Shown: piece by piece, positions 44,668-62,301 of the stretch
Position numbering within the stretch: position 1 is the first letter of the stretch
Layout: the number at the start of each line of letters is the position of its first letter
Source: Gammaproteobacteria bacterium
Lineage (GTDB): Bacteria > Pseudomonadota > Gammaproteobacteria > Ga0077536
DNA length: 64,000 nt
Reading direction: 5' to 3'
Assembly: GCA_963662545.2 (NCBI GenBank)
Contig: CAXXLL010000003.1
Span: 2,080,001 to 2,144,000, forward strand
The notes under the pieces: generated by a model
Told to the model about the DNA's origin: nothing
The model's database searches: none
Seen by the model: only the letters and a program-made list of their open reading frames with translations
Translations under genes and position numbers: made by a program

Positions 44668-45576
44668 GTGAACAAACCTAACACACCGGACACGAGCGTG
44701 CCGGCAGCGGGTGCGGATTTGGATAGGTTCCTGCTCAAGATAACCGGCTTCGCGGCCTTGACGGATTTGTTCTGTACGGGCATGTCCGAGACCGAATCCG
44801 AAAGGCTATGTTGGGACGCCCAACATTTCGCCTTTCTGGCTTCTAATTACCGAGAGCGTTTCGAGAATGACAAAATCATCCTAAGGCATGACGAAGCCGT
44901 GGAGGCCTACCGACTCTTATCACCGCTTATACGCGCGTCACAGGACCCAATTGTTTATAGCCGGATGATGGTTTCCCGGCTTCTCGATACCGGAGGCTTG
45001 GCCCTTGACCCTGGCGCCGTAGAGACGCTTCTCCACGAGCATGAGGATGATGCCTGTTTCGAGGGCAAAGAGGCTTGGGACAGATATATAACCCACGAAG
45101 CACTCCTCCTCTCCGTGGAGCGCATAGACCGCAAGGAGCGCACCGAAGCGATCGATCCCGATTGGCGCTGGTTGCGCGATCAGTGCCGAGACGTACTTGA
45201 ACGCCGGCCCGTCACTCGCCCACGCGGCGGGAGGCTCGATCCGCGCATTCGCGAACTGCGCGACGCGCTGGTGAGCGCGTACTTGCAATTGTTCGACGGC
45301 TGCGGGCTTACCGTCACTTCCCGGAACGGTGTCTCACTTGCTAGCGCGATGGCAGAGGCGACGGACATCCCCGAAACCACCATCGACAGCATTTGGCGGC
45401 GCGCTGGCGCTGGGGTTGGAGCATTTCCACCGTATCGTGACGATATGCACTCACGGGAGCGATTCGTTACGTGCGCCGGTTGCGGCGCCCTGGTGTCGAA
45501 GATTGACGCAGGACTCGACTTTGAGTCTGGGCGAGGCGAGCCGCGCTGCGAGTCGTGCCGCGGCCTTCGGGAATAG
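44668..45576 (+). CDS. Hypothetical protein with C-terminal Cys4 motif
   Basis: Long ORF between integrase and alpA; CAGC...CESC. Confidence 0.6.
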   Translation: MNKPNTPDTSVPAAGADLDRFLLKITGFAALTDLFCTGMSETESERLCWDAQHFAFLASNYRERFENDKIILRHDEAVEAYRLLSPLIRASQDPIVYSRMMVSRLLDTGGLALDPGAVETLLHEHEDDACFEGKEAWDRYITHEALLLSVERIDRKERTEAIDPDWRWLRDQCRDVLERRPVTRPRGGRLDPRIRELRDALVSAYLQLFDGCGLTVTSRNGVSLASAMAEATDIPETTIDSIWRRAGAGVGAFPPYRDDMHSRERFVTCAGCGALVSKIDAGLDFESGRGEPRCESCRGLRE

Positions 45577-45673
45577 CACGACCAATTTTATTCTTCGTAC
45601 CGCGAGCCGCGGTTCTTCTGTAATCCTCTCGAGCTAAGCCGGTACTTGACCGGTCTGAACGAGGATTTCAAAG

Positions 45674-45916
45674 ATGAACAGATTGTTGCGGCGCCCCGAA
45701 GTCGAATCGATCACCGGACTGTCGAGGGCGAGCATCTACGCCAAGATGCAGAAGGGCGAATTCTCCGCACCGGTGCGACTCGGCACCAACTCCGTCGCAT
45801 GGCGTGCGGCCGACATCAAGACATGGATTGACGCCCTGCCCCCAGCGAGGTTGGGGAGATCTAGCCGTACAACATCCCGTGCGGCGGCTGGCCCAGAAAC
45901 GAGTACGCCGCGGTAG
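45674..45916 (+). CDS. alpA: AlpA-family regulator/excisionase
   Basis: RLLRRPEVESITGLSRASIY...GEF..PVRLG..SVAW....I..WI. Confidence 0.93.
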   Translation: MNRLLRRPEVESITGLSRASIYAKMQKGEFSAPVRLGTNSVAWRAADIKTWIDALPPARLGRSSRTTSRAAAGPETSTPR

Positions 45917-46045
45917 TGATCGGGGCGCGGGGATGTATCGGTGGGATGCGCAGGTTCGCCGGGAGCGGTGTCGAGAGCCAGCTCCGTCGGGCTCGATTCC
46001 CGAGTCGCCAACCCAACTCCGAACAACCGCAGGCAGGCCGTCACG

Positions 46046-47719: not shown

Positions 47720-47857
47720 AGAGCGGTCCCGGTCCCGATTCGGGGGAGAACATGTCATCAACGCATACATCGCAGCCTGCCGGCCAGCGTTCAGACGGGC
47801 GATGACGGCGGACTCCCCAGATGACTTAATGCAAGCTGTCATCAGGAGCAATCGATT

Positions 47858-48376
47858 ATGACGAAAAGGAAACTTGCCAAGGGAAAGGCACCGGCGACCG
47901 TCGTCGCCAACGATGGGGAAGACGGAAGAGGCGCGCTTGCGCGTGTCGGCGGCTCGCAGTCCAACGATTGGAACACCACCATCGCGAATCAAGCGTTGCA
48001 GACGCTGTGGTTGAACAACTCGGATGATGAGGAACGGGACCGCCAACTGCAGAGGGCCACGCTCGTCGCCTTGGCCGGCATCGGGCCGAAGGACGAATTG
48101 GAAGGCATGATGGCTGCACAGCTGCTCGCCGCACACAACACTGCGATGGAGTGCTACCGCCGGGCCATGCTCGAAGAACAGACCGTCGAGGGACGGCGCG
48201 AGAACCTCAATCAGGCGAACAAGCTCTCGCGTACTTGGGCGACACTGCTGGAGGCGCTCAACAAGCATCGCGGCAAGGGCCAGCAGAAGGTCACGGTCGA
48301 GCACGTCCATGTCCACCCTGGCGGGCAGGCCGTAGTCGGCAATGTCGAAAGACCGGGGGGTGGGGGTGAGGAGTAA
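47858..48376 (+). CDS. Conserved hypothetical protein (partner of the HGGxSTG protein)
   Basis: GPKDELEGMMAAQL..H, RGKGQQKVTVEHVHVHPGGQAVVGNV. Confidence 0.8.
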   Translation: MTKRKLAKGKAPATVVANDGEDGRGALARVGGSQSNDWNTTIANQALQTLWLNNSDDEERDRQLQRATLVALAGIGPKDELEGMMAAQLLAAHNTAMECYRRAMLEEQTVEGRRENLNQANKLSRTWATLLEALNKHRGKGQQKVTVEHVHVHPGGQAVVGNVERPGGGGEE

Positions 48377-48392
48377 TTGGAGGAACAACCCC

Positions 48393-48650
48393 ATGCAAAG
48401 CAGATTGGCGATGCACCGGAGTCCTCGATGTGGAGCCCGAACGAGAAAAGGCAACCCGTGCCGGTCGCCCGCGATGGCGAACGGCCGATGCCGGATGCAC
48501 GGGGGCACGTCCCCCGGCGCACCGCGGGGTAACGACAACGCCCTGAAGCACGGTCGCTACACAGCCACTGCCATCGCAGAACGGCGGAAACTGGTGGCAC
48601 TCATCCGTTCCATACGCAAGTTAGTGGTGGAGGTGAACGGGTCCGATTGA
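48393..48650 (+). CDS. HGGxSTG-domain small Zn-binding protein
   Basis: CGARTRKGNPCRSPAMANGRCRMHGGTSPGAPRGN.NALKHGRY; GGAGG RBS. Confidence 0.88.
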   Translation: MQSRLAMHRSPRCGARTRKGNPCRSPAMANGRCRMHGGTSPGAPRGNDNALKHGRYTATAIAERRKLVALIRSIRKLVVEVNGSD

Positions 48651-48751
48651 GACCGCGGTCGGCGCTTACGGGTCCTTCCGGTTTGATCTTCAAGCGGGGC
48701 CCATGAGGACATGTGAAACCGGACCGCGAGTGGCGATGTTTGCCAGCGCCG

Positions 48752-49018
48752 CTAATGCTCACAGGCGTACGAAGATGCAGGAGCGAGCCCGGACTCCGAA
48801 GCGCAATCGACCCCGAACGTTGCAAGTCTAGCATCGGCTGACTGTCTGGCTGGCCCTGATTCGCCAAGCAGCGTGTAGAGATCTTTCTCGACCATTAGGT
48901 TCTTCGGGGTCGTGGCAAACACACCGCGGGCCGGGTTCGACTTCACGAAGCCGTAGATCTTCCCACTTGAATCCCGGAAGTTCCGTAATAGCCATTGTGG
49001 AATGTAGTGATGCCGCAC
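48752..49018 (-). pseudogene. DUF4238 N-terminal fragment
   Basis: RHHYIPQWLLRNF...EKDLYT, then similarity is lost. Confidence 0.75.
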
Positions 49019-49344
49019 GTTCCCGTCTTCACTTGAGACAAGATTAGTCTGATGTTCTCACGCGGGTTAGTCGAGCACCGGTAAGAGTTTATCCGTCACC
49101 CACGAGTCAGCATCTTCGATCTCAGCAATACGTGCCGCCCGGTCGTACCTTGCAGAGTTGGCAGCCCCGTACCTTCGACGGTGAGACGAACCGCATGATT
49201 GTGTCTGCCTCTGGCCATTAGTTCCCGTTCTTCTCGTTCATCATCTCGATGAGCCCACCCTCGGCTGCCCGCAGCAGTTCGAAGATCATGCCTTCATCGA
49301 AGGCTCGCGCCCGAGTGTTAGGCCGATTCGTCATAAGCGTTGAT

Positions 49345-49534
49345 TCTCGTGGTAAAAGCTTGATTGGCCAACGCCGAAGTATCTGCAGGTTCTCGCCACA
49401 TGCCTGTCTTTTCAGCGTGGCGCAGTACTTTGAGCTTGCGCTGAATGTCATGTGCATCGTTGATCATTCGCTCCATCCTGCTTTCTGCCAATCGGCAGCA
49501 AGCAGGATGCCCCGCAAGTCCGTACAGTGCTACA
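49345..49534 (-). mobile_element. IS481-family left-end relic
   Basis: TGT terminus; DIQRKLKVLRHAEKTG / HVARTCRYFGVGQSSFY across a frameshift. Confidence 0.75.
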
Positions 49535-49771
49535 GTCACTAACGGCGGCGGTGTACACATAGATTCACCGTCGGACCCACTGCGACAATGCGCAGTTGCT
49601 GAGATGCTTGTGACCTGCTCGGGGGCTTACCGCCCTACCACGAGCACGTTGCCCTTGGACGCAAGTTCAATCGGGGGAAAGCCCAACCCTTTGCTAATAC
49701 TGCCCGACGAGTAGCAGCGATGTTGCAAGCCACGGAAACTGCTAAGTTCCGGAAACGGAGAGATATACGAC

Positions 49772-50638
49772 GTGAAACATCACTTCATACCTCAATTCTT
49801 ACTGAAAGCCTGGGCCGACACGACGGAGGACGCAAAGCTTGAGGTCTTTCGACTTGACTTGCCAAATTTTCCATCCTCTCGGTGGATGCCCGAATACACT
49901 GCATACGAAGACAACCTTTACACGTTGACTAAACCTGTAGTGGCCGGTGTTGAGCAACAAGCCATCGAGACAGACTTCCTACAGCGCGTTGATAGTGACG
50001 GTGCAATGGTGCTGCACAAGTTAAGCACTATGGGTCTCTCCAACCTGAGTCCTCAGGAATTAGGTGTTTGGGCTTACTTCATAGAATCGCTTTTGTTTCG
50101 CACTCCAGACGCTGCTTCATGGCTCCGCGCTAAGGCACCCAATAATCTAAGAGCCTCTTTGAATGAACGGCCGGAGGAGTACGATGCGATAGCGGCAACT
50201 TGCGACCCACCGACGCTCGCAGACTTTGTTGAAGAGAATTTCCCAGGATACATTGAAAATTACGGAATCATGTCTTTAGGTAAATTGGTCTGCGATCAAG
50301 AGCGCGTCGAGAAGATACTACACATGAGATGGTGGTTATGGGATTTTAGTGGGCAAAAAAACCATTTGTTTCTTGCAGATCGGCCCTGCATTTTCACGGC
50401 AAACATCGACGATCCCGACTTGATCGTTGCGCTACCCATCGGTCCATGGAAGGCGTTTATGGCTACCAAGACGGAAGGGGTTGCAAGCGCGGTCAGACAG
50501 CAACGCCGACAGGACTTGCTAATGCAGATAAACGAGAGTTCGATCGGGCAAGCGAAGCAACGTGTTTACGCACGTGACGCGTCTACACGCCGTTTCATTT
50601 CCAATCGCTTGGCCAATCAAACGTCGGTGCGGCGTTGA
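49772..50638 (+). CDS. DUF4238 domain protein (candidate anti-phage gene)
   Basis: KHHFIPQFLLKAW, YEDNLYT, FLADRP, LPIGP. Confidence 0.85.
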   Translation: MKHHFIPQFLLKAWADTTEDAKLEVFRLDLPNFPSSRWMPEYTAYEDNLYTLTKPVVAGVEQQAIETDFLQRVDSDGAMVLHKLSTMGLSNLSPQELGVWAYFIESLLFRTPDAASWLRAKAPNNLRASLNERPEEYDAIAATCDPPTLADFVEENFPGYIENYGIMSLGKLVCDQERVEKILHMRWWLWDFSGQKNHLFLADRPCIFTANIDDPDLIVALPIGPWKAFMATKTEGVASAVRQQRRQDLLMQINESSIGQAKQRVYARDASTRRFISNRLANQTSVRR

Positions 50639-50861
50639 CGTGGAGACGGGCCAATGAAGGCGTCATTTGCGCCTTTACGGTTGTCGGTAGTCCGAAGGAA
50701 AAAGGCGAAGCGATGCATTGATGCTGTATTCCAGCATGTGCACTCGGAACGGAAACGAAAGAGAGTTGAGCCTTGATGTGGTCGTCATTGCAATTCCTAA
50801 ATCGCTACGGAGTGGATAATTGTCGACTGCCCACATAGGGGCAGAAGCATTGCCATCGGTC

Positions 50862-52140
50862 TGGCCTGAGTTGGGTTTTTTGGTCCAATTTAATTGAGAG
50901 AGTCTGGCTTATTCTGAATCTTGAAGAAGGAGGAACGAATGAGCCGGAAGAGATATGCGACGGAACAGATTATTGGGATGCTGCGTGAAGCGGAGGTGCT
51001 GCTTTCGCAGGGCAAGACGGCCGGCGAGGTCTGCCGTCATCTCGGTGTGTCAGAGCAGAGCTACTACCGCTGGCGTAGGGAGTACGGCGACCTCAAGGTC
51101 GATCAGGCGAAGCGCCTGAAAGAACTTGAACGGGAGAACGCCCGGCTTCGCAAGGCAGTGTCTGACCTGACCCTGGACAAGATGATCCTTAAAGAGACGT
51201 CCAAGGGAAACTTCTAAGCCCCGCCCGCCGCCGTGCTGCAGTCGAGCATATGCAGGAAGTGTTGTCTATCTCGGAGCGCCGGGCCTGCTGGGTTCTGGGC
51301 CAGCACCGCTCGACCCAGCGCAAGGTGCCGCGGGGCCGCCCAGATGAGGATGCCCTGAGCCGAGCCATTATTGCTCTGGCAAGTGAATATGGCCGCTATG
51401 GCTACCGGCGTATCTGCGCCCTGTTGAATGAGCAGGGCTGGAGTGTCGGTGTCAGCCGGGTGGCCCGGGTCTGGCGACGGAAGGGCTCAAGGTTCCCAGT
51501 AAACAGCCCAAACGGAGCCGTCTGTGGCTGAACCATGGCTCCTGTATCCGGCTGAGGCCGAGCTGGCCCAACCACGTCTGGGCTTACGACTTCGTCATGG
51601 ACCGGACCCACGACGGCAAGGCCTTCCGCATGCTCACTGTGATCGATGAGTACACCCGCAGGTGCCTGGCCATTGAGGTGGAACGGAAGCTCCGCCATGA
51701 CGATGTCCTGGCCTGTCTGACTGAGCTGTTCACCCAGTATGGGCCACCAGATCATATCCGGTCTGATAACGGGGCCGAGTTCACAGCCAAAGCAGTGCGC
51801 AAATGGCTCCCCAAAGTAGGCGTGAAGACCCTGTTCATAGAGCCGGGCTTACCCTGGGAGAACGGCTACAACGAGAGTTTCAACGGCAAACTCAGAGACG
51901 AGTTACTCAACGGAGAAATCTTCTACACTTTGAAGGAGGTCAAAGTGCTCATCGAACAATGGCGCAACCACTACAACACGGTCAGGCCGCATAGCGCGCT
52001 GGGCTACAGGCCGCCGGCTCCAATGGCCATCTTGCCAGCACCTCACGCAGCCCATTACCCTGATCACGCATCACTGCAAAAAGGAAACCAACAGGCCAGA
52101 TTCTCTCTTAACACTTGGACCACTTAAATCTGGCTGGCCA
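50862..52140 (+). mobile_element. IS3-family element (IS407-group-like); orfA 50939..51217, orfB damaged by a 1-nt deletion near 51480
   Basis: TG...CA ends with TGGCC...TGGTCCAA / TTGGACCA...GGCCA IRs; slippery GGGAAAC junction; [25 protein letters not shown]. Confidence 0.9.
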
Positions 52141-52435
52141 CCCGATAGTCCGCCTTTAAGCCTTTTTCTCTTTTCATGGCTTCAAATGTACCCGCCTGCC
52201 CATATCAGGGCAAAGCGACTCTGGCCGACCTCGCACTAGTTCTGCAATAATCACGAATCGTGACAACCCGCAGGGTTCGCATCGTCGGGCTACCTGCTGA
52301 ATACAATAGTCATTTATATCTGGCATAGGGTAGCTCCCTAAGCCTGACGAATAGGCGGGAACGCTTCGCATACCTGTGTGGTTGTCACAAATGGCCCGGC
52401 ATCATTTCGATGCTGGGGACAATTAGTAGCAAGCT

Positions 52436-52750
52436 ATGCGGATCTATCACTTTGCCATTTTTCTCGGCATCTTCGCTTGTGCGATCCCATCTGCGCATGC
52501 AGCGTGCAGCACCTACGACACGGACTGCGTCACCCCTCGATACGGGTACGATCGATTGGCAGAGCCCTACGACCCAAACCCGCCACGACTCTACGACCGC
52601 GAGGGAAGATACCGGGGAGACTACAGCTCGAACCGATATGACCCTGATTCGGTATCCAACCCTTACGGGAGGTATGGAAGCGAATACTCGCCCGACAGCA
52701 TCAACAACCCCATCAATGCGTGGGAGGACTACGAAATTAGGCGGGAATAG
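52436..52750 (+). CDS. Small secreted protein with NPYG.YGS.YS motif
   Basis: Signal peptide ending AHA; DPDSVSNPYGRYGSEYSPDSINNP. Confidence 0.75.
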   Translation: MRIYHFAIFLGIFACAIPSAHAACSTYDTDCVTPRYGYDRLAEPYDPNPPRLYDREGRYRGDYSSNRYDPDSVSNPYGRYGSEYSPDSINNPINAWEDYEIRRE

Positions 52751-52760
52751 GGGACAGAGG

Positions 52761-53312
52761 ATGGGAGGCCTTGAAAATTACCATCGGGAAATTACCGCGA
52801 GAATTCGGGCGGGCAAATTGCGTTTGGAAGTGATCAAAGAGGCAGGCGCAGATCCTAATTCTGTCGCCTTCTCGAAATTCTGGACGCTTTTTTCCTTCTA
52901 TGCTGCTGCTGGGAGCATAGGCATCGTCTGGAGATTGAATGGTCCGTGGTGGTGGTACCTCATTGGCGCTATTTGTGCGTTCTTTTGCGGCTCAGCGATC
53001 GCATTCATACTAGGGAAGAGAAGGGCAAGGCGATTAGCCATGGGGAAGCCGCTCGCCTTCGATAGCCTCTGGACAGAAGGCGTCCTAGCACTCGAACTGC
53101 CAGAATTAGACTCCCTCGACGAAGAGGGTACATGCGTGTCTCCCGATGATGATTACAGGGAGTTCGTGGCCCGACATTTCCTTAAAGCACCTCAAACTCG
53201 TATTGACGGTCTACAGCCCGCCATCATCGAATATCCAGACGGCACGGAGGTGGAAACGCTCGTGAGAGTCTGCCGCGGCCACGACTCAACACACAAGAAG
53301 GAGGATTCTTAA
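52761..53312 (+). CDS. Hypothetical 2-TM membrane protein
   Basis: GAGG RBS before ATG 52761; two TM segments. Confidence 0.6.
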   Translation: MGGLENYHREITARIRAGKLRLEVIKEAGADPNSVAFSKFWTLFSFYAAAGSIGIVWRLNGPWWWYLIGAICAFFCGSAIAFILGKRRARRLAMGKPLAFDSLWTEGVLALELPELDSLDEEGTCVSPDDDYREFVARHFLKAPQTRIDGLQPAIIEYPDGTEVETLVRVCRGHDSTHKKEDS

Positions 53313-53344
53313 TATCAAGTGTTGAGACCATTCCTGAGAGTAAA

Positions 53345-53596
53345 TTGCGCTCGAACGAGAATTTGCGTGGAGGATTGGGAGAGGTCACGGTTCATTCCGC
53401 TGAAGGGAAACCGGCTGACTTGGTTTTAACAGTTGACGTAGATTCACCCTTCGACGGCGAATGTAATCGTCATACATTCCTGACGAATGCGGTCCGGCTT
53501 TTGGAATTGGCGTCCCGCATACAGAACACGCTTCTGCCGAAGAGTGAGATTCTTGAGGCTCTAGAACGGATTGAGTCGAAGCTTGATTCGACATAA
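53345..53596 (+). CDS. Small hypothetical protein
   Basis: 83-aa ORF with C-terminal coiled coil. Confidence 0.4.
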   Translation: MRSNENLRGGLGEVTVHSAEGKPADLVLTVDVDSPFDGECNRHTFLTNAVRLLELASRIQNTLLPKSEILEALERIESKLDST

Positions 53597-53748
53597 CAGG
53601 TTCCCTCAATTGTAGTTGATAAAAGTCGCCATGCGACGCTACCGTTCTCATGCGAATAGAAGCGAGCGGTTCCTCAAAACCGCCAATGCACCCCGACCTC
53701 GATGGCCTTGCGCTCGAAGTAGTAGTCGTACGGGTTAAGCGCCCAGGG

Positions 53749-56220
53749 TGTTGATTTGCACTGAAAACTGACCCACCTGAGGCCGATATTTGCATCGAAA
53801 TTTGACCCACGACTAGACACTGACCTGCCCGATATCCGGGCAGGAGACAAAGGAGTGATCGACGTGGCGTTATTGAGTGTGATCCGAAGGTGGCGGTGAC
53901 GGGACGGACTCCCGATCCGCGAGATCTGCAGACGAAGCGGATTGTCGCGGAACACCATCCGTAAATATCTGAAGAACAAAGTCGTTGAGCCGAAGTAGGC
54001 AACGCCGAAACGAGCCAGCAAGCTTGATGCGTTTGAGAACAAGCTCGGACGTTGGCTGGAGACAGAGCCCGGTAAAGGCCGCAAGCAGCGCCGTAATCTG
54101 CGGCAGATGTACGGTGACCTGGTCGCATTGGGTTACCGGGGCTCCTACGATCGGGTAGCTGCTTTTGCGCGAGACTGGCGTCGCCGGCAACGGGAAGTGG
54201 CCCGGATTGCTGGCGGTGGTACGTTCGTAGCGTTGGTATTTGCGCCGGGCGAGGCGTTCCAATTCGACTGGAGCGAGGATTGGGCTGTGATCGGCGGCGA
54301 GCGTATGAAGCTCAAGGTCGCGCACTTCAAGTTGGCCCATAGTCGGGCGTTTGTCCTGCGCGCCTACCGACAGGAAACCCACGAGATGTTGTTCGATGCG
54401 CACAATCATGCGCTGCCGGTCTTGGGCGGAGTACCGGCCCGGGGCTTGTACGACAACATGAAGACTGCGGTCGATAAGATTGGCCGCGGCAAAGCGCGAA
54501 CGGTCAACGCGCGCTTCATCGCCATGGCCAGTCATTACCTGTTCGAGCCGACGTTCTGCAATCCGGCGTCGGGCTGGGAGAAGGGCCAGGTCGAGAAGAA
54601 CGTACAGGATGCACGGCGTCGGGTGTGGCAGGACGTGCCGGCGTTTGCGCGTCTGGCGGCGCTGAATGACTGGCTAGAACAACGTTGTGTGGCGCTGTGG
54701 CACGCGATAAAACACCCCGAGCAGAAAGATCGCACGAGAGCCGAGGTGTGGGCTGACGAGCAGCCCCACTTGATGCTGCTGCCGCCACCCTTCGACGGCT
54801 TTGTCGAACACACCAAGCGCGTTTCACCGACCTGCCTGCTTGCGTTCGAGCGTGACCGCTACAGCGTCCCGTCGCCGTTCGCTAATCGGCCGGTCACTCT
54901 GCGTGTTTACGCTGATCGGCTGATCGTGGTGGCTGAAGGCGAGGTCATCGCCGAGCATGCGCGGTTGATGGCGCAGAGCCACGACCGCCCAGGCCGCACG
55001 GTGTACGACTGGCGGCATTATCTCGCCATCGTACAGCGCAAGCCCGGTGCCCTACGCAACGGTGCACCGTTTGCCGAGTTGCCGGAAGCCTTCAAACGCC
55101 GGCAGTCGATTGTGGTTAAGCGGCCCGGTGGTGATCGCGAGATGGCCGAGGTCCTGGCTTTGGTATTGCATCATGACGAGCAAGCGGTGTTGTGCGCGGT
55201 CGAACTTGCGCTCGACGCCGAGGGCGTCTCCAAGCAACACGTTCTGAACGTATTAGCGCGTCTGCTCGAGCCGGCATTACCTGCGCCAATCGATACCCCA
55301 GGGCACCTGGCGTTAGAAGCTGAGCCAGTCGCCAACGTTAGCCGTTACGACGGTTTACGGGAGGTGGACCATGCATCCTGAGGCGATGATTGCGACACTC
55401 AAATCGCTCAAGCTGTTCGGCATGGCACAAGCCATCGACGATCTTGCCCAACAAAGTTCACCGGCCTGGCAAGGTGCTGAGTCGGTCCTCGACAGCCTGC
55501 TCAAAGCCGAGGTGGCCGAGCGCGAGGTGCGCTCGATTAACGACCAAACCAAGGTTGCGCGCTTCCCCGTCCATCGTGACCTGGTTGGCTTTGAGTTCCA
55601 CGAGAGCACGGTCAACGAGGCCCTGGTGAGGTCGCTGCATCGCGGCGACTTCATTGATGATGCGCACAACGTCGTGCTAATCGGCGGACCGGGAACGGGT
55701 AAAACCCATCTCGCTACAGCCATCGGCTGACAGGCGATTGTGCACCAACATCGACGCGTTCGCTGCTTCTCGACTATCGAGCTGGTTAACGTACTGGAGC
55801 AGGAGAAAGCCCGTGGCAAGCCGGGACAAATGGCTCATCGGCTGGTCCACACCGATCTGGTTGTGCTCGACGAACTCGGCTCTCTACCGTTCAGCCAGGC
55901 CGGTGGTGCGCTGCTGTTCCACTTATTGAGTAAGCTCTATGAGCGCACCAGCATCCTAATCACGACCAACCTGAGCTTCGCCGAGTGGGCCAATGTGTTC
56001 GGTGATCCCAAGATGACGACGGCGTTACTCGACCGGCTGACTCATCACTGCCACATCGTTGAAACCGGCAACGATAGCTACCGCTTCAAACACAGCTCGA
56101 CGAAGAAAACCAAGGAGACAAAAACTAGAAAATCCAAGAACACTTGAGCCATACTCTGGCTCTTCCAGGTGGGTCACTTTTAAATGCAAAACCTGGGTCA
56201 GTTTTAGGTGCAACTCAACA
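53749..56220 (+). mobile_element. IS21-family element, inactive: istA (53855..55381) and istB (55371..56147) both carry nonsense codons
   Basis: TIRs TGTTGATTTGCACTGAAAACTGACCCA / TGGGTCAGTTTTAGGTGCAACTCAACA with internal repeats; FQFDWSE, YDNMKTAV, EKGQVE; GGPGTGKTH, LDEL; stops at 53897, 53996, 55728; no target duplication. Confidence 0.95.
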
Positions 56221-56391
56221 CCGTGGTCTCCCGTCGCTTTTTATACCCTCCGCCTTTACCCGATAATCAGCACGCGATACGGCGGAGACGGCTATCAAAT
56301 CGTTTAGCGGTAATTCAAGCGCGCACGCCAATGCGCGGTCGCTACGGATAGGTTTGTGCCTATAACAAGGTTGAATTTCGGAGGGTGTCAT
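56221..56391 (-). pseudogene. N-terminal 57 codons of a probable retron-type reverse transcriptase, cut by IS21
   Basis: Not in the ORF track (<60 aa): MTPSEIQPCYRHKPIRSDRALACALELPLNDLIAVSAVSRADYRVKAEGIKSDGRPR is open right up to the IS21 end and overlaps the HTH 3' end. Confidence 0.62.
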
Positions 56392-56665
56392 CTTCTAGAA
56401 AGGTGAGACTCGATAAGGCTAGGCGTTGGGCCAAATCTTCATCAATGCCCGATAGCTCGCCCTTATCCACCGCCAGAAATATCAGAATGCTAAATGGCAT
56501 ATTCAGCGCGTGGGCGATCTTCTCAACCGTACTTAAGGTCGGGTCGCGCTTGTTCTTTTCCAATAGAGACACGTACGACACGGAAAAACCCGCGCGGTTG
56601 GCGAGGGCAGCTTGCGTCATCCGACGCTGACTGCGGCAAAGTTTAAGTGCGCGTCCTATATCCAT
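56360..56665 (-). CDS. XRE/Cro-C1 HTH protein
   Basis: IGRALKLCR...MTQAALA...SVSYVSLLEKNKRDPTLSTVEKIAHAL. Confidence 0.92.
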   Translation of the reverse strand: MDIGRALKLCRSQRRMTQAALANRAGFSVSYVSLLEKNKRDPTLSTVEKIAHALNMPFSILIFLAVDKGELSGIDEDLAQRLALSSLTFLEDDTLRNSTLL

Positions 56666-56704
56666 GCGAAAACCAAAGATTAGAGATTTAAAGGGTCTGT
56701 GACA

Positions 56705-56953
56705 TCATTTGAAAAAGCGGTCTACCAGGTTTGCAATATTCGTCACGGCCGGAAGCAGACGACCGAGGACATCCAAGGCCCGTTGCTTCTGTTTTGGACT
56801 GAGTTGCGAACTCTGTGTTCCTGTTTTTTCCTTGCGCTTGAGCTCGTCTATGACGCTATCAAGCTCATCCATCATGTCGCGTTCTATCTTGCCATTTACG
56901 TGTGCCCGAAATTCTTCGAGCACCTCGAGCGTGTTTTTAACGTACTTCGTCAT
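56705..56953 (-). CDS. Small helical protein (82 aa), candidate retron effector
   Basis: AAAGGGA RBS; amphipathic helices; sits between the structured RNA and the HTH gene. Confidence 0.7.
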   Translation of the reverse strand: MTKYVKNTLEVLEEFRAHVNGKIERDMMDELDSVIDELKRKEKTGTQSSQLSPKQKQRALDVLGRLLPAVTNIANLVDRFFK

Positions 56954-56959
56954 TTACAC

Positions 56960-57340
56960 GTCCCTTTGGTAGCGACGCAAAATTGCGCCTGCCCTGTCGC
57001 AAATCTGGTGTCGATACGGAAGCAAGAAAGAACTGCAGACCCAAAAATCCCGGGCTGAACCTGCCCCTATCTATCACCTGGTTGCCAAGTACTTAGCCAG
57101 GTGCAAGAGGAGCTATTAGCCGCAAAGGAGCAATTACCAACTCAACTCGCTCAGTTACCCATCGCCGGATATCGGCTATCCGGGTTGCAGGTGCCGAAGA
57201 GCTTGCCCGATAATCAGGCCGTCTTTGCCAAGGACACTCTACCGCCCGGTCCGGCTTTCGGGTCTAACCCCCGTAAGCCTTGGCCGGGGGCCTCACAGAG
57301 CGCCCGTTACTGAAGTTGGTCGGTTGGCGGTCCAACCAGC
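56960..57340 (-). ncRNA. Structured leader RNA, candidate retron msr-msd
   Basis: Minus-strand stems GGGCGCTCT/AGAGTGTCC, CCCCCG/CGGGGG, CCGGATA/TATCCGG, CACCTGG/CCAGGTG, ACCAACT/AGTTGGT, GGTTGG/CCAACC; TATAAC -10-like box at 57343-48. Confidence 0.6.
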
Positions 57341-57539
57341 CCGTTATACCGAGTGGGTTGCACCGATGCGCGTTTATGCAGGGATGAAGAGACAGCGTGA
57401 AGCTAACGGACGACAATCAAGCGAACCTCGATGCGATTATCGAAGTGTTAGCGCTTCGGGTGCCAAAGGACAAGATCGATTCCGCGTTCGCGTTACGCTC
57501 GATTGGACGGCGGCTTGTTTCAAGAGCGGCACGCTGACA

Positions 57540-57755
57540 ATGTCGCGCGCGCGTTACGCGACGCTGGCGAATGCGAAAGCCGTGTCGTGCGCCGTCGAAG
57601 CGCTGCGCGCGTTAGGTCACATTGTCGAAGTGGGCGAACTGAACGGCAAGGCCGTGCTAACCGTCGATGGTGAGGCGCTTGTGTTGGATAGCGGCTTGAT
57701 CGATGAGCAACTACGCCGCGCGGCGGCACAATGCGAAGATGCGCGCGTTCACTAG
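57540..57755 (+). CDS. Small hypothetical protein
   Basis: MSRARYATL...LRALGHIVEVGE; start uncertain. Confidence 0.35.
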   Translation: MSRARYATLANAKAVSCAVEALRALGHIVEVGELNGKAVLTVDGEALVLDSGLIDEQLRRAAAQCEDARVH

Positions 57756-57785
57756 GCACGCTACGCGGCTGTTCAAATATCTGCT

Positions 57786-58238
57786 TTAGCTATCGCGCTG
57801 TTGTTCCAGATCGAGATACTTGAAAACGCCGTAGCCGGCGCGGCGGTTGTCGTTCACATACCGAATCGGCACGAGTTGAAGACCCTCCCATTGCGCATAT
57901 TCGGCAAACTCGCGGGTCCCTGTCAGAAAAAGCCCAACGGACACGCGCTGACCTGTCGTTGTCTCGAATCGGCAGTCATACCCGGCTGTGAATCGAGAGT
58001 CTGCGGGCGAGAACACGTTGGATAACCACTTGATAACGTTCGAGCGTTTCTCCGTGCGCGCGGAGCGCTCGCGGTAGTCGAGCGCGTTGGCTTCGGCGTA
58101 TGCCTTCGCGAACGCTTCGCAATAGCTGGTAACGGATACGTTGTCCCGTTGCGCGACGGCGACGACCGCAACCGCGATGAGGCCGAGGGCGCATAGCCGT
58201 CGTGCCCTACTGCCACCGCGCATATTAGACGTGCTCAA
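57786..58238 (-). CDS. Secreted hypothetical protein
   Basis: Signal-peptide-like N-terminus and two Cys in the mature part; 1 nt from the upstream gene. Confidence 0.6.
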   Translation of the reverse strand: MSTSNMRGGSRARRLCALGLIAVAVVAVAQRDNVSVTSYCEAFAKAYAEANALDYRERSARTEKRSNVIKWLSNVFSPADSRFTAGYDCRFETTTGQRVSVGLFLTGTREFAEYAQWEGLQLVPIRYVNDNRRAGYGVFKYLDLEQQRDS

Positions 58239-58239
58239 T

Positions 58240-58752
58240 CTAATCCGCGAGATAGCGCCTGCACGCTAAGTCAAACTCGTGTCCGTCCTCTTTCCGGCGC
58301 GGATAGTTGCGATAGTCCTGCCACAGCCCGGCTTCTCGCGCTATGCCCCTTTCCTCGCCGTAGTGATACCGGAAACGGGTCTTTGCCCATGAACTAACAG
58401 GCCCGTAGACGTGCTCCAGGTCCCGGCAGCCAGCATCACAGAGATCCGACACATTCAGAAGTGTTTGAACAGATGAGCAGCTAAGATATTTGACAGCCTC
58501 GTCCAATTCATCGAATGATGGATCGCGAGTTAAATCAATTCCGCTTCTGGCCGCGCGACCAAGAAGATCGACGAGCTGCCCTACTGTAGAGGCATAGACC
58601 GCGTTGGCCCCATTGGTCAGGTTGACAACGTCGACTGTGCAGCGCGAGTAACACTCGCTGACCTTCTCGCGGCCGGCTTCGGCTTTGGTCAGATCGTGCG
58701 CGTGCGAAACGTACGCGATCGCGCAGAGCGCCATGATTGAAAAGTGTTTCAT
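58240..58752 (-). CDS. Secreted Cys-rich hypothetical protein
   Basis: MKHFSIMALCAIAYVSHA signal; CYSRC, CDAGC and two further Cys. Confidence 0.65.
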   Translation of the reverse strand: MKHFSIMALCAIAYVSHAHDLTKAEAGREKVSECYSRCTVDVVNLTNGANAVYASTVGQLVDLLGRAARSGIDLTRDPSFDELDEAVKYLSCSSVQTLLNVSDLCDAGCRDLEHVYGPVSSWAKTRFRYHYGEERGIAREAGLWQDYRNYPRRKEDGHEFDLACRRYLAD

Positions 58753-58781
58753 GTCGGGTGTCCTGTAATAAGCCAATAGAG

Positions 58782-59586
58782 GGCATTGTCAGAGTAAATG
58801 GGCTTGAGCTGAAAAGTAAGGCCTCGTAGCCTCCGGTGATGCACAATCCTTTCCGTTATTTCAACAGTTCGCCCGAAGTGATCCGCTTCGCGGTGATGTT
58901 GTATGTCCGATACCCTTTGTCGCTGAGACAGGTCGAAGATCTCCTGTTCGAGCGCGGCATCGAGATCTGCCATGAGACCGTGCGGTATGGGTGGAACCGC
59001 TTTGGTCCGCTGTTTGCCGCGGAGATCCGGACACGCCGTGTTCATCATGGATCCTATTCGAACTGGCGCTGGCACCTTGATGAAGTGTTTGTCCGCATCA
59101 ACGGCAAGACACATTACCTATGGCGTGCCGTTGACCATGAAGGCGAAGTCCTTGAGGGTTTTGTGACGAAACGGCGGGACCGCAAGGCTGCGCTTGAGTT
59201 CCTGAAGGGCACGATGAAGCGTTATGGCCGGCCGGCTTCGATGGTCACGGATAGGCTACCGTCATATCGTGCTGCGATGAAGGTGATCGGCAACGAAGGT
59301 TGCCAAGAGACCGGGCGTTGGCTGAACAACCGGGCAGAAAACTCACATCAGCCCTTTCGAAGGCGGGAAGGGGCAATGGCGCGGTTCAGAGACATCAAGA
59401 CCCTACAGAAATTCGCCGCCGTCCATGCCTCGATCTATAACCATTTCAACCACCAACGCCACCTCAACCGCCGCGCTATTTTCAAACAAGCCCGAGCCGC
59501 TGCCCTGGCTGAGTGGTGTCAACTTGCAGCCTAAAAGGCCTCGATTGCAGGTTCTACCGGTCCGACCCAGTTAGTCTGACAATGCC
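58782..59586 (+). mobile_element. IS6-family element with apparently intact transposase (58836..59534)
   Basis: TIRs GGCATTGTCAGA / TCTGACAATGCC; WHLDEVFV, YLWRAVD, TDRL.SY, LNNRAENSH. Confidence 0.95.
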
Positions 59587-59722
59587 CCAGCGACGTACTA
59601 GAGGCGGACCAAGCCCCGCCAGCGGACGCCCTCGAGCTGCTCCCGGAGCGCCCGCGGAGAACCTCGATTCGCCCCCACCAGACCTGACGCGCTCGCCAGC
59701 CAGGTCCAGACCACACTTCCTT

Positions 59723-60523
59723 CTAGTTTATCGTCCTGGTCGCAATGCCTTCCAGGCAGGCCCTCCACCGAATGGTCGGCCAATCATTGCTCTGAACCGC
59801 AAGGTTCCGGTCGATGTAGAACAGGAACAGATCCCGCACACGTCCGGGCCTGGTGATCCTGTCGCATTCGGCCATCGCCTCATCCGAAACCGCCGCCTCG
59901 TCAGCGTACTCGCTCCACAAGGATGTGTTTTGCAACATGTCCGACACCAGCAGGAACGAATCGATGTCCTCATTTCGCTCAACGAGCGAGGCCATCGTCT
60001 CGACGATCGGCGACACGTCCGCTTCTTCCCGGTCCCGCAGTTCATCGAGTATGCGTCTGAGCCGGTTCAGGAATGTCGCAAACTCGATTTCGACGACTCG
60101 GGGATTCTCGTAGAGCAGATCAGCCATCCTCCCCTGCTTGGGTATGCACCACGAGCGGCCGGATTGGCTCGGGGCCTCGTGTTCCGATTCGGGCAGTCCA
60201 TGGATGGACAGTTTCTGCAGGAATGGCGCCCGCAGCGTGTCCCTGGTCCATTCCTCGATTCTCTCGAAGGCCTTCGCTCCGTCCTCCTCCGATATCTCGT
60301 TGGAGGTGTCAACGAGGATTACCGTGTGACCGGGTATCCGTATTCCTTCCCGCACTTGCGCTCTTGTACCCGTCGGACAATACCCGTTGGCCTCACGCAC
60401 CCGAAGTTGGTCGGCGTAGTTCAATCTGTATCCGACGAAGACCACCACCACACCGAGCAACACGATAACCGAGACGAGTCCTATTACCTTGAAGAGGTGG
60501 GGCGACTCGCTGCCGGAGCTCAT
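59723..60523 (-). CDS. Membrane-anchored vWA-like protein
   Basis: N-terminal TM; TVILVDTS (MIDAS-like), SPIVET, FLLVSDMLQN. Confidence 0.7.
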   Translation of the reverse strand: MSSGSESPHLFKVIGLVSVIVLLGVVVVFVGYRLNYADQLRVREANGYCPTGTRAQVREGIRIPGHTVILVDTSNEISEEDGAKAFERIEEWTRDTLRAPFLQKLSIHGLPESEHEAPSQSGRSWCIPKQGRMADLLYENPRVVEIEFATFLNRLRRILDELRDREEADVSPIVETMASLVERNEDIDSFLLVSDMLQNTSLWSEYADEAAVSDEAMAECDRITRPGRVRDLFLFYIDRNLAVQSNDWPTIRWRACLEGIATRTIN

Positions 60524-60528
60524 CGGTG

Positions 60529-61902
60529 TCAGGGTTTCCTGTCCCGGTTGGTCGGCTCGAGGACGACGGTTTCATATCGCTTCCACAAATCGGCCACCTT
60601 TGCGCACTCCTGTTCAACGCTGTCGAAGAATTCCTCCTGCCCCGAATCCCGCCACTCGGTCACAATTGCATCCGCCTCGTCCAGGATGTGCCAATCCGCA
60701 GGTGTAGCCGGAAACGACCAGTCGATATTGACGCTTTCCCTGTGCACGTTCAGCATCCCCCGGTCAATCTTATCGGCGTTGTGTTTGTTGTGTGCGGCAA
60801 TGAAATCGGCTTCTACGAGATCCAGATACACCCTTTGCTCCCAGCTTTCCCTGACGTCCTCCAGAACGTTCCATGCACCTCGCCGCTTTCTGTCGAGTTC
60901 CTCAATCCATCCCGCAACATCGGCCCTGACACCCTTCGTGAGTTGCGTCCGGTAGCGCCCCGACAAAGTTGTGTAGCTCTCCTTGATATCCTTCCATTCG
61001 CGGTCCAGGCGCCTTTCCGCCTCTTCGCGCTTGATCCCCGTTCGCACGAAGGTGAATCCCTTGTAGAAACCCACGGCACAGAGCGCCAAGCCCAGCACGA
61101 AGAAGAGTAGAGACTCCAGTTCCCACGTCGCCGGATTGAACGAGATGCCCGCTACGAGCTCCCGCACCGATGCCAGGTCGATTTCGGTTGCCTGCAGCGT
61201 TTGCCGTTCTCTTTCCTCGATCAGCCTCGCGAAATTCTCCCGGTGACGTCCCACGATGAGGTTCAGACCCGTAGCGAACACCAGCAGCAAACCACACGCC
61301 GATAGAAAAGGCACGCGTGATTTCGAGTGGCGCCGCACCGCCGACAGCGTCAATCCACCTCCTGCGCCGAGGGCGCCCACGTTGATGGCGGACACGAGCA
61401 CTGCCGTGATGAAAGCACCAACCAGGCCGGTCGACAGGGCGCGGGTCAGGAGGGTTACATTTGCCAGGGCCTCGACAACGATGCAGACCACGAGCAACGC
61501 AATGAGCTTCAACCACTGGTACGCCGTTGGGGGATCGATATCGCTCGCCGGAGGCAACTCTGTCCGAGCTTTCCGATGCTGCGAGCGGCGGTGCTGGAGG
61601 GCCTTGAGTTCCTCTTCGGCGTCGATTGTTACCTGTCGAGACCCCTTGGTTCGTTTGAAATCCCAGCCGTTCAGCGGTTGGCCGATTTCCTTGGCGACGG
61701 TACCGAGGGTGCGGTTGACCAGGTCGCGATAGGCCAGCGCCAAAGAAGTGAGGAGCTTGTGGTGGGCCGGCTTCCAGTCTCCATCGGCGTGGATGGCGAT
61801 CTCGGCCGGATCGAGGCCCAGAGACCGGGGATCGGTCGGCCAGGAGGCCGGCGGGGTCAGGCCCGATCCGGCGGCTTCAGGCGACCCGTTCGTTGGTTCC
61901 AA
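60529..61902 (-). CDS. Multi-TM coiled-coil membrane protein
   Basis: Four TM segments (VEALAN...GLVGA...SAINVG) flanked by coiled coils; AGGAGG upstream; 5 nt from the vWA-like gene. Confidence 0.75.
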   Translation of the reverse strand: MEPTNGSPEAAGSGLTPPASWPTDPRSLGLDPAEIAIHADGDWKPAHHKLLTSLALAYRDLVNRTLGTVAKEIGQPLNGWDFKRTKGSRQVTIDAEEELKALQHRRSQHRKARTELPPASDIDPPTAYQWLKLIALLVVCIVVEALANVTLLTRALSTGLVGAFITAVLVSAINVGALGAGGGLTLSAVRRHSKSRVPFLSACGLLLVFATGLNLIVGRHRENFARLIEERERQTLQATEIDLASVRELVAGISFNPATWELESLLFFVLGLALCAVGFYKGFTFVRTGIKREEAERRLDREWKDIKESYTTLSGRYRTQLTKGVRADVAGWIEELDRKRRGAWNVLEDVRESWEQRVYLDLVEADFIAAHNKHNADKIDRGMLNVHRESVNIDWSFPATPADWHILDEADAIVTEWRDSGQEEFFDSVEQECAKVADLWKRYETVVLEPTNRDRKP

Positions 61903-62301
61903 AGCCCTTTGGCCTCCTGTCCTCAGTCATCGGGTATCCCGTCCTCGGCGTTGAGCCTGGCAGTGACATGGCGAATTCGGAGTGTAGTCCTACGGCCTCA
62001 GCTCACGCAACCGCATCCCGGCCCGCCAGATCTCCTGGTCGGCCATCTCGCCGAGTTCCGCTTCGAGGCGCTCCCGGTAGACGGCCCGGCCGCACTCCTC
62101 AATGACGTATATGGAATCCTCTTCATTTTGCAAGCAACCTGACTGAGGGCATAGCATGTTGTGTTGTCGGTGCCGGCGCGCGATGCGGTATCGTGGGCGG
62201 CATGCATCGGGGCAAGGTCGCGTGATGAAGGGGGCATTCACGGCGAAAGGATTGACGAACCCGGCACAGTTCAAGCGTCGGCATTCTTAGCCGATGCTAA
62301 A

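What the first reader, a model, noticed from the sequence alone, without database searches (positions are those of the whole stretch)
56221..57350. Hidden retron-like locus: structured RNA, small protein, XRE-HTH and an RT N-terminus amputated by IS21
Seen: on the minus strand, a ~380-nt non-coding stretch dense in stems precedes an 82-aa helical ORF and an XRE-HTH gene. An unannotated ATG at 56391 overlaps the HTH end and opens a 57-codon frame (PCYRHKPIRS..ALA.AL...YRV...IKSDGRPR) that stops exactly at the IS21 terminus. Known: retron RTs carry a Y..x..K.xG..R motif just before RT domain 1, and type VI retrons have the order ncRNA - small protein - HTH - RT. Inferred: this is a type VI retron-like anti-phage system whose RT core was deleted. 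The sequence across IS21 is unrelated and there is no target duplication, which fits an IS-mediated adjacent deletion. The small protein would be a new effector. How the cell tolerates it without an RT is an open question.
Basis: partly seen in the sequence, partly recalled or inferred. Interest (0 to 1): 0.85.

Follow-up and report, generated by a model that had tools for sequence, protein, structure and literature searches.

The report
Type VI retron beheaded by IS21
This is the leftover of a known anti-phage system, a Type VI retron, whose reverse transcriptase gene was cut off after 57 codons at the end of a mobile element, while its small toxin gene and antitoxin gene are still whole.

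Summary
On the minus strand lie a 377+ nt structured leader, an 82-aa ORF (56953-56705), a 101-aa XRE-HTH gene (56665-56360) and a 58-codon frame (56391-56215).

- **The stub is a real RT N-terminus.** It is 86-88% identical over 57 residues to two 323/324-aa reverse transcriptases, whose best PADLOC model is RT_VI.
- **The other two genes are known parts.** The HTH matches HTH_VI (1.5e-26) and the small protein matches SP_VI (1.3e-8).
- **The cut is at an IS end.** RT-derived sequence stops at 56221, next to the last base (56220) of a 2472-bp IS21-family copy.
- **The rest of the RT is gone.** No further RT sequence was found in the assembly.

So this is a Type VI retron remnant, a known kind. 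The small protein is the known SP toxin, not a new effector. Two preprints already show that cells tolerate loss of RT activity, because the HTH and/or the RNA keep SP silent. A complex model supports HTH-SP binding (0.79, best control 0.00). The missing target duplication proves little, since none of the other IS21-family copies examined has one either. Phage defence is probably lost, and SP-HTH probably persists as a toxin-antitoxin pair. Interest is modest.

The parts
53749..56220 (+). IS21-family insertion sequence copy, 2472 bp, with terminal inverted repeats (TGTTGA...TCAACA). It is probably defective. istA has in-frame stops at 53897-53899 (TGA) and 53996-53998 (TAG). istB has a premature TGA at 55728-55730.
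   Evidence: Pfam finds rve plus Mu-transpos_C_2 and IstB_IS21. The limits come from two other full copies, about 99.6% identical, in the same genome. The frames and stops were read.
56215..56391 (-). Stub of the retron reverse transcriptase gene. Codons 1-57 (56391-56221) are RT-derived. Codon 58 and the stop (56220-56215) are the last six bases of the IS.
   Evidence: tblastn of P0001 and P0002 against the genome matches only residues 1-57 here, at 88% and 86% identity. The word-based search gives E 6e-24 at 100% coverage. P0001 and P0002 match RT_VI at 4.6e-64 and 2.6e-65. The stub alone hits no Pfam or PADLOC model.
56360..56665 (-). Type VI retron HTH protein of 101 aa, the Cro/C1-type regulator and antitoxin. 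It is full length.
   Evidence: It matches PADLOC HTH_VI at 1.5e-26 over 3-91 of the protein and 2-89 of the 92 profile positions, and Pfam HTH_3 at 7.5e-13. Relatives of the same 101-aa length are 92% and 89% identical.
56705..56953 (-). Type VI retron small protein (SP) of 82 aa, the toxin. It is full length and keeps the conserved hydrophobic C-terminal helix.
   Evidence: It matches PADLOC SP_VI model PDLC02969 at 1.3e-8 and PDLC02971 at 5e-4. A relative is 90% identical. It shares its helix pattern with the small ORFs of homologous loci.
56954..57330 (-). Non-coding leader, the candidate msr-msd part of the retron hybrid RNA. The 5' limit is not determined; it lies somewhere between about 57240 and 57396.
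   Evidence: MFE z is -2.8, with 0 of 150 shuffles as stable. A first fold of 56666-57400 gave z -3.0 on 20 shuffles. There is no Rfam match, no hit with a covariance model built from homologs, and no significant blastn match to homolog leaders.
57036..57051 (-). IR1, the 5' arm of the long-range stem that encloses the SP gene. It lies 83-98 nt before the SP start.
   Evidence: Coordinates are. It pairs with IR2 both in the duplex fold and in the MFE fold of 56683-57330. Homologs have a stem at the same place built from different sequences.
56683..56699 (-). IR2, the 3' arm of the long-range stem. It lies 6-22 nt after the SP stop codon, in the SP-HTH spacer.
   Evidence: The window's duplex energy is -23.3 kcal/mol against -18.2 +/- 3.1 for shuffles, and 30 of 500 shuffles do as well, so on its own this is weak evidence.

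Best explanation
This is the remnant of a canonical Type VI retron. That system has a hybrid RNA (structured leader plus SP coding sequence), the SP toxin, the HTH antitoxin/regulator and an RT.

An IS21-family element sits where the RT gene should continue. Everything from RT codon 58 onward has been lost through an IS-associated deletion or rearrangement.

- **Shown:** what each of the three genes is, where the break lies, and that no other RT sequence was found in the assembly.
- **Inferred from experiments on Retron-Vpa2 and Retron-Sen3:** without an RT the locus can no longer defend against phage. The loss is harmless, because SP is held in check by the HTH (modelled here to bind it) and perhaps by the RNA fold.
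- **Inferred:** SP-HTH now behaves as a toxin-antitoxin pair. That would explain why a deletion coming from the RT side stopped short of the HTH gene, since clones that lost HTH but kept SP would die.
For: - **RT stub.** It is 86-88% identical over 57 residues to two 323/324-aa RTs. Their best PADLOC model is RT_VI, at 214 and 218 bits, against 194 and 186 bits for RT_V.
- **HTH and SP.** The HTH matches HTH_VI at 1.5e-26 and the SP matches SP_VI at 1.3e-8. All 4 of the closest SP relatives match SP_VI.
- **Synteny.** Of the 32 fetched loci whose RT is 30-47% identical to P0001, 28 have an HTH 38-57% identical right before or overlapping the RT. All 28 have a small ORF ending 32-61 nt before the HTH. 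Of 11 SP sequences scanned (the window's and 10 of these), 9 match PDLC02971 and 6 match PDLC02969.
- **The break.** RT homology ends at 56221 and the IS ends at 56220.
- **No RT elsewhere.** There is no RVT_1 match (0 at E<=1) and no tblastn hit below E 1 anywhere else in a 96.85%-complete, 3-contig genome.
- **Same junction in public runs.** Contigs from runs of two studies, 2619 nt long, cover 56192-57600 with no differences. One of them may be the source sample.
- **RNA.** Folding z is -2.8 for the leader and -4.6 for the whole hybrid RNA, and the IR1-IR2 stem closes the SP domain. This is the published architecture.
- **HTH-SP binding model.** ipSAE was 0.79 (runs 0.81, 0.79, 0.79) against a best control of 0.00. 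The mark was reached by 58 of 80 solved complexes and 2 of 110 mismatched pairs. The runs agree in at least 85% of their contacts and the partner pLDDT is at least 79. The interface joins HTH 70-93 to SP 51-81 and SP 7-18, the same mode as modelled for Sen3.
- **Literature.** SP plus HTH without RT and ncRNA is non-toxic, and defence needs the RT (Sen3). A dead RT is not toxic (Vpa2).
Against: - **The leader RNA is not shown to be homologous to known Type VI RNAs.** There is no Rfam match. A covariance model built from 26 homolog leaders does not find it. blastn finds nothing significant. The IR1-IR2 duplex is only marginal against shuffles (30 of 500).
- **Expression is untested.** No sigma-70-like promoter was found on the minus strand. 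The palindrome-plus-promoter block seen before homolog leaders has no visible counterpart here, so the remnant may not be transcribed.
- **The literature tests are not RT deletions in the native context.** They were catalytic-site mutants or a minimal SP-HTH construct. In Vpa2 and Sen3 the RT also binds the HTH, so an RT-less state in the native locus is not strictly the same.
- **The RT_VI model beats RT_V by only 20-32 bits.**
- **The binding model may partly reflect likeness to other small helical pairs.** It says nothing about affinity.
Confidence: 0.88

Rival explanations
1. The locus is a completely dead relic. It is no longer transcribed, SP and HTH are intact only because the truncation is recent, and the pair has no toxin-antitoxin activity or selective value.
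For: No promoter-like site was found on the minus strand in 56100-57900. The promoter and palindrome block of the homologs is not recognisable here. The IS copy differs from its sister copies at only about 0.4% of positions, with 4 private substitutions in 2472 bp, so the event is fairly young. No data on expression could be obtained.
Against: Both ORFs are full length, without frameshifts or stops, and keep the residues that are invariant among their closest relatives. The HTH-SP interface is modelled with confidence. The promoter scan covers one promoter type only.
Confidence: 0.3
2. The RT was lost through homologous recombination between two IS21-family copies, following a simple insertion into the RT gene. 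It was not lost through a one-step adjacent deletion made by the transposase.
For: The genome holds at least two more full copies about 99.6% identical, one partial copy, and about eight copies 68-72% identical. Of the 9 full-length IS21-family copies whose two ends I read (this one and 8 others), none has a target duplication. This suggests widespread reshuffling of flanks.
Against: No reciprocal product, meaning an IS copy flanked by the rest of the RT, is present in the assembly. An inversion is therefore excluded, and a deletion by either route leaves the same scar. The two routes cannot be told apart from this sequence.
Confidence: 0.4
3. The junction is an assembly artefact. An intact RT, or its remainder, exists in the cell but was collapsed or misjoined at the repeated IS.
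For: The IS is present in several near-identical copies, which short-read assemblers cannot bridge. The public contigs reach only 29 nt into the IS.
Against: The genome is in 3 contigs of 2.97 Mb, 2.59 Mb and 17.6 kb, and no RT fragment beyond codon 57 was found in any of them. A misjoin would displace the missing part, not erase it.
Confidence: 0.03

Closest known systems
Retron-Sen3, a Type VI retron of Salmonella enterica in the cl2075 SP lineage (bioRxiv 10.64898/2026.04.27.721009; I read the abstract and sections 25, 27, 29, 31 and 34)
   Same: The gene order is leader RNA, SP, HTH, RT, and the HTH overlaps the RT start. SP is an ~80-aa helical protein with a hydrophobic C-terminal helix. 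The modelled HTH-SP interface uses the C-terminal helix of the HTH against the SP C-terminal helix and its N-terminal helix. A long-range IR1-IR2 stem brackets the SP gene. In Sen3 the SP-HTH pair is non-toxic without RT and ncRNA, which is the state found naturally here.
   Different: The RT is reduced to 57 codons here. I had no Sen3 sequence, so I did not measure sequence identity or place this SP in an SP cluster. The leader was not shown to match the Sen3 covariance model, which is not available to me.
Retron-Vpa2, a Type VI retron of Vibrio parahaemolyticus in the 'Large' lineage (bioRxiv 10.1101/2025.10.22.683967; I read the abstract and sections 7 and 10, plus passages)
   Same: The hybrid RNA idea fits. 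The leader plus SP coding sequence fold together much better than chance, while the SP coding sequence alone does not, and the 3' end anneals back onto the leader. In Vpa2 a dead RT is not toxic and SP translation needs msDNA, so an RT-less copy would keep SP silent.
   Different: There is no RT here, so no msDNA can be made. The conserved 7-nt direct repeats described for Vpa2 are shown only in a supplementary figure that I could not see, so I could not test for them.
Type VI retrons as defined by Mestre et al. 2020 (PMC7736814; passages read) and the PADLOC models RT_VI, HTH_VI and SP_VI
   Same: The definition is a clade-3 RT, a Cro/C1-type HTH protein of 91-110 aa (here 101 aa) and a small accessory protein of 75-79 aa (here 82 aa). 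All three PADLOC models are matched, the RT model through the stub's full-length relatives.
   Different: The defining enzyme is absent, so by a strict detection rule such as PADLOC's this locus would not be called a retron at all.
IS21 family insertion sequences (IstA transposase plus IstB ATPase)
   Same: The element has two genes, istA (rve and Mu-transposase C-terminal domain) and istB (IstB_IS21). It has terminal inverted repeats ending in TG...CA and occurs in many copies in the genome.
   Different: No target-site duplication is seen at this copy or at any of the other 8 full-length copies examined. This copy has stop codons in both genes.

Membership tests
Type VI retron | A reverse transcriptase of the Type VI clade with an intact catalytic core (RT domains 1-7, YxDD motif) | tested here: not met
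   Only codons 1-57 remain. They are 86-88% identical to RTs whose best model is RT_VI. The own genome has no RVT_1 match at E<=1 and no further tblastn hit below E 1. The locus therefore descends from a Type VI retron but is no longer a complete member.
Type VI retron | A Cro/C1-type HTH protein of 91-110 aa (cluster 2_1) directly upstream of, or overlapping, the RT gene | tested here: met
   The protein is 101 aa. It matches HTH_VI at 1.5e-26 across nearly the whole profile. Its gene overlaps the RT start by 32 nt. The definition comes from PMC7736814.
Type VI retron | A small helical accessory protein (SP, about 75-80 aa) upstream of the HTH | tested here: met
   The ORF is 82 aa and ends 39 nt before the HTH start. 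It matches SP_VI model PDLC02969 at 1.3e-8 and PDLC02971 at 5e-4. It aligns with the SPs of homologous loci.
Type VI retron | A structured leader/hybrid RNA upstream of and including the SP gene, closed by inverted repeats that bracket the SP coding sequence | tested here: inconclusive
   **For:** folding z is -2.8 for the leader and -4.6 for leader plus SP plus tail, and the MFE fold closes with IR1-IR2. Homologs have a stem at the same position built from different sequences, significant in 12 of 15 homologs, which are not independent and represent about 6 clades.

**Against:** the window's duplex is marginal (30 of 500 shuffles). There is no Rfam hit, no hit with my covariance model and no significant blastn similarity.
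Type VI retron | RT-dependent ssDNA (msDNA) synthesis and anti-phage defence | not testable with these tools
   This needs wet-lab work. With no RT in the genome neither is expected, because RT catalytic mutants abolish defence in Sen3.
IS21 family | istA (DDE transposase) followed by istB (AAA+ helper) between terminal inverted repeats | tested here: met
   Pfam finds rve, Mu-transpos_C_2 and IstB_IS21. The inverted repeats and ends were fixed by comparing three copies.
IS21 family | A short direct target-site duplication flanking the element (4-8 bp, a figure I recall and that comes from no call) | tested here: not met
   No duplication is seen at this copy, at the two copies about 99.6% identical, or at six copies 68-70% identical.

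The most novel reading that the evidence does not exclude
The RT-less remnant is not junk. It would be a naturally minimised Type VI module, made of hybrid RNA, SP and HTH, that is kept by selection. It could act as an addiction module that stabilises this IS-rich island. It could also still sense phage interference with RecBCD through the HTH-SP pair alone, which would mean Type VI retrons can decay into free-standing toxin-antitoxin defence units. One hint, not followed up: the closest SP (90%) and HTH (92%) relatives share a 10.7-kb contig length, yet the stub search returned no RT from a contig of that length.
Probability: 0.12. Interest if true: 0.55.

Novelty: new member of a known kind. 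Interest (0 to 1): 0.28.

Why it matters
This is a natural version of an experiment done in the laboratory. In Retron-Sen3 the SP-HTH pair was shown to be self-sufficient and harmless without the RT and the RNA. Here a genome carries that state, produced by an insertion sequence.

It shows how a toxin-bearing defence system can decay. The parts whose loss is safe go first, and the antitoxin and toxin stay.

It also warns annotators that SP-HTH pairs without an RT may be retron relics. Rule-based defence finders will miss them, and they could be mistaken for new toxin-antitoxin families.

Beyond that it is an ordinary pseudogenised defence locus in an IS-rich island.

Tried and rejected
- **Rfam scan.** A scan of 52000-62000 at E<=10 gave only a chance miRNA match.
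- **Covariance model R1.** I built it from the last 140 nt of the leaders of 26 homologous loci, leaving the window out. It did not find the window's leader, either with default filters over the 64 kb or with filters off over 54000-60000. The best hits were elsewhere and weak. The model had only 11 base pairs and was dominated by one clade, so this is a weak negative.
- **blastn, word size 7.** The window's leader against the homolog leaders gave nothing below E 0.26.
- **Masking of the SP ribosome-binding site.** I tested whether the conserved 5' motif (TGTTCTTTRA in homologs, about 281-336 nt before the SP start) pairs with the SP ribosome-binding site. It was not better than shuffles in the window or in any of the 12 homologs tested, so I make no claim of RBS masking by that motif.
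- **A closer intact copy.**
  - The HTH query in genome contigs found only generic XRE proteins at 34-41% identity.
  - The DNA of the locus was found in 0 of the 2 other genomes of the genus.
  - P0001 matched 0 of 81 genomes of the order at E<=1e-30.
  - The best plasmid hit was 42.6% identical.
  - The best metagenome loci were 41-47% identical.
- **PADLOC on neighbours.** Ten neighbouring ORFs gave no defence-system match.
- **Public runs.** X6 and X7 do not cover 56276-56400, so they say nothing about the junction.
Full report
**What is there**

On the minus strand of 56215-57400 the ORF list gives three genes:
- an 82-aa ORF at 56953-56705;
- a 101-aa ORF at 56665-56360;
- a 58-codon ORF at 56391-56215, whose ATG lies 32 nt inside the second gene.

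Upstream of the first ORF, some 380-440 nt carry no convincing gene. A divergent plus-strand frame starts at 57397.

On the plus strand, 54107-56147 encodes IstA-like and IstB-like proteins (Pfam rve, Mu-transpos_C_2 and IstB_IS21).

**The stub is a real RT N-terminus**

Searching the stub against longer proteins returned two reverse transcriptases of 324 and 323 aa, P0001 and P0002. They are 86% identical to it over 98-100% of the stub, with E 6e-24 and 3e-23. Both carry Pfam RVT_1.

Run the other way, tblastn of P0001 and P0002 against the whole genome matches only residues 1-57. The match lies at window 56391-56221, at 88% and 86% identity, and nothing else scores below E 1.

An RVT_1 profile search of the genome finds nothing at E<=1. 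The genome has 3 contigs and is 96.85% complete. The RT core is therefore not elsewhere in the assembly.

**Which system**

PADLOC models give a consistent answer:
- P0001 and P0002 score best on RT_VI, at 4.6e-64 and 2.6e-65. RT_V comes next, 20-32 bits lower.
- The window's HTH matches HTH_VI at 1.5e-26, over almost the whole profile.
- The 82-aa protein matches SP_VI (PDLC02969 at 1.3e-8, PDLC02971 at 5e-4).

Mestre et al. 2020 define type VI as follows (PMC7736814, passages):
- a clade-3 RT;
- a Cro/C1 HTH protein of 91-110 aa;
- small auxiliary proteins of 75-79 aa.

Garcia-Rodriguez et al. 2026 describe the canonical order SP-HTH-RT, with the HTH upstream of or overlapping the RT.

**Synteny in relatives**

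I fetched 21 metagenome loci and 19 genome loci other than the window's own with P0001 as the query.
- **HTH.** Of the 32 loci whose RT is 30-47% identical, 28 have an HTH 38-57% identical right upstream. Of the other four, two start at a contig end, one has a partial RT match, and L037 showed none.
- **Small ORF.** tblastn with the window's SP found nothing in any of the 40 loci. Yet all 28 loci with an HTH have a small ORF ending 32-61 nt before it.
- **SP family.** Ten of these small ORFs align with the window's SP in a shared pattern: an N-terminal helix, an ELDxVI motif and a hydrophobic C-terminal helix. Of the 11 sequences, 9 match PDLC02971 and 6 match PDLC02969.

**Closest relatives**

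The closest SP relatives are 90%, 84% and 76% identical in alignment A4; BLASTP gave 78% for the second. The closest HTH relatives are 92%, 89% and 91% identical. Both window proteins are full length and keep the invariant positions.

**The break**

Two other full copies of the IS in the genome, about 99.6% identical to this one, fix its limits at 53749-56220. It is 2472 bp long, with inverted repeats TGTTGA...TCAACA.

RT homology ends at 56221. The stub's last codon (Cys) and its TGA stop are the terminal six bases of the IS.

The left flank is unrelated to RT, and there is no target duplication. However, none of the other 8 full-length IS21-family copies I examined has one either. The missing duplication therefore does not single out an adjacent deletion. 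Recombination between IS copies is equally possible.

A different IS21-family copy has the same 7 bases, CCGTGGT, after its right end. The exact junction could therefore lie anywhere from 56220/56221 to 56227/56228.

The IS copy itself has stops in istA (53897-53899 and 53996-53998) and in istB (55728-55730).

Contigs from public runs of two studies, 2619 nt long, cover 56192-57600 without a difference, so they carry the same IS-retron junction. One of them may be the source sample. No alternative continuation into an RT was seen.

**The RNA**

*In favour:*
- The leader 56954-57330 folds better than all 150 dinucleotide shuffles (z -2.8).
- Leader plus SP gene plus 3' tail (56683-57330) gives z -4.6. 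The SP coding sequence alone (z -0.5) and the HTH coding sequence (z +0.35) are unremarkable.
- The MFE fold of the long form closes with a stem between 57051-57036 and 56699-56683. This stem brackets the SP gene, as described for the Vpa2 hybrid RNA and for the Sen3 IR1-IR2 pairing.
- In homologs, a stem of 10-16 bp joins the same two places using different sequences in different clades. Its duplex energy beats shuffles in 12 of 15 loci, representing about 6 clades.

*Against:*
- The window's own duplex is marginal (30 of 500 shuffles).
- Rfam has no match.
- A covariance model built from homolog leaders does not find the window.
- blastn finds no significant similarity.
- No promoter-like site was found on the minus strand.

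I therefore treat the RNA as probable but not shown.

**How it works now**

*What the experiments show:*
- In Sen3, defence needs the RT, the SL3 region of the ncRNA and SP. An HTH frameshift cannot be maintained. SP plus HTH without RT and ncRNA is harmless, while SP without a working HTH is toxic.
- In Vpa2, SP alone is toxic and a dead RT is not. SP translation needs msDNA.

Either way, a cell that loses the RT loses defence but stays healthy.

*The complex model:*
A complex model of the window's HTH (9-row alignment) with its SP (4-row alignment) scored ipSAE 0.79 (runs 0.81, 0.79, 0.79), against a best control of 0.00.
- The mark was reached by 58 of 80 solved complexes and by 2 of 110 mismatched pairs.
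- The runs agree in at least 85% of their contacts, and the partner pLDDT is at least 79.
- The interface joins HTH residues 70-93 (also 55-66) to SP residues 51-81 and 7-18. It mirrors the AlphaFold3 model of Sen3.
- This supports binding but does not show it.

*My inference:*
- SP-HTH persists as a toxin-antitoxin pair.
- Deletions that reached the HTH gene would have been lethal, which would explain a breakpoint 139 nt beyond the HTH stop.

**Context**

The locus sits in an IS-rich island:
- a phage-type integrase at 43307-44521;
- an AAA_25 protein at 45941-47719;
- DUF4238 at 49772-50638;
- an IS3-like fragment;
- IS6-like and DDE_Tnp_1 transposases.

GC content drops to 0.50 over the retron. 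No relative of the RT was found in the 80 other genomes of the order at E<=1e-30. In the class sample, 21 of 401 genomes, including the window's own, had a match at E<=1e-10. The retron was therefore probably acquired horizontally.

**Novelty**

Earlier reports of this scan describe complete Type VI retrons on other DNA. None that I saw describes an RT-less remnant.

A full-text search for retron, reverse transcriptase, insertion sequence and truncated listed 11 of 12 matching papers. Judging by titles and abstracts only, none is about IS-truncated retrons.

This is a decayed member of a known kind. It is useful as a natural example and as an annotation warning, but it is not a new system.

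Noticed in passing
window 53749-56220; genome C2:1696800-1699271, C3:2947951-2950422 and six more IS21-family copies: I read both ends of nine full-length IS21-family copies, and none has a flanking target-site duplication. Either this IS lineage makes none, or the genome has undergone extensive recombination between IS copies.
   Followed up: partly
window 56221-56227; genome C3:2191515 (duplicated at C2:739-745): A different IS21-family copy, about 69% identical, is followed by the same 7 bases, CCGTGGT, as the copy next to the retron. This could be chance (roughly 1 in 1600 for ten flanks), a target preference, or a carried-over flank.
   Followed up: no
window 53996-53998 and the same position in two sister copies: All three near-identical IS copies share an in-frame TAG early in istA. 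Only copy C3:2947951-2950422 has an otherwise open istA N-terminal part and an intact istB. The family may be defective throughout this genome, or the stop may be read through.
   Followed up: no
P0001 and P0002 (closest full-length RT relatives), residues about 199-202: The catalytic motif reads LTDD, where the other 11 aligned Type VI RTs have YVDD, YIDD or YADD. This is an unusual first residue for a retron RT.
   Followed up: no
L010-L029, about 60-100 nt before the conserved leader stem-loop: The homologous retron loci carry a perfect-looking palindrome just upstream of a TTGAC-type -35 box and a TGnTGTAAT -10 box. The palindrome has an AATTCACT half-site, a 3-4 nt spacer and then AGTGAATT. 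It is a likely operator for the HTH protein. I saw no counterpart in the window.
   Followed up: no
P0004 with P0008, and P0005 with P0011: The closest SP (90%) and HTH (92%) relatives both report a 10,684-nt contig, and another pair reports a 28,089-nt contig. The stub search returned RTs only from contigs of 5015 and 1473 nt. These may be further RT-less copies, or the search may simply have missed their RTs.
   Followed up: no
window 57397-57755, plus strand: Two adjacent frames, 57397-57537 and the 3' part of 57225-57755, read like one gene broken by a frameshift, divergent from the retron. Neither has a family match (57225-57755 in Pfam; 57397-57537 in PADLOC).
   Followed up: no
window 43307-53312: The island upstream holds a phage-type integrase, a 592-aa AAA_25/DUF6371 protein, DUF4238 and an IS3-like fragment. 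No tRNA gene lies in the window. The island's limits and nature were not worked out.
   Followed up: partly
L038:880-1060: In this homologous locus the frame that starts at the expected SP start behind the ribosome-binding site meets an early stop, and only a 51-aa ORF remains. It is possibly another decaying Type VI retron.
   Followed up: no
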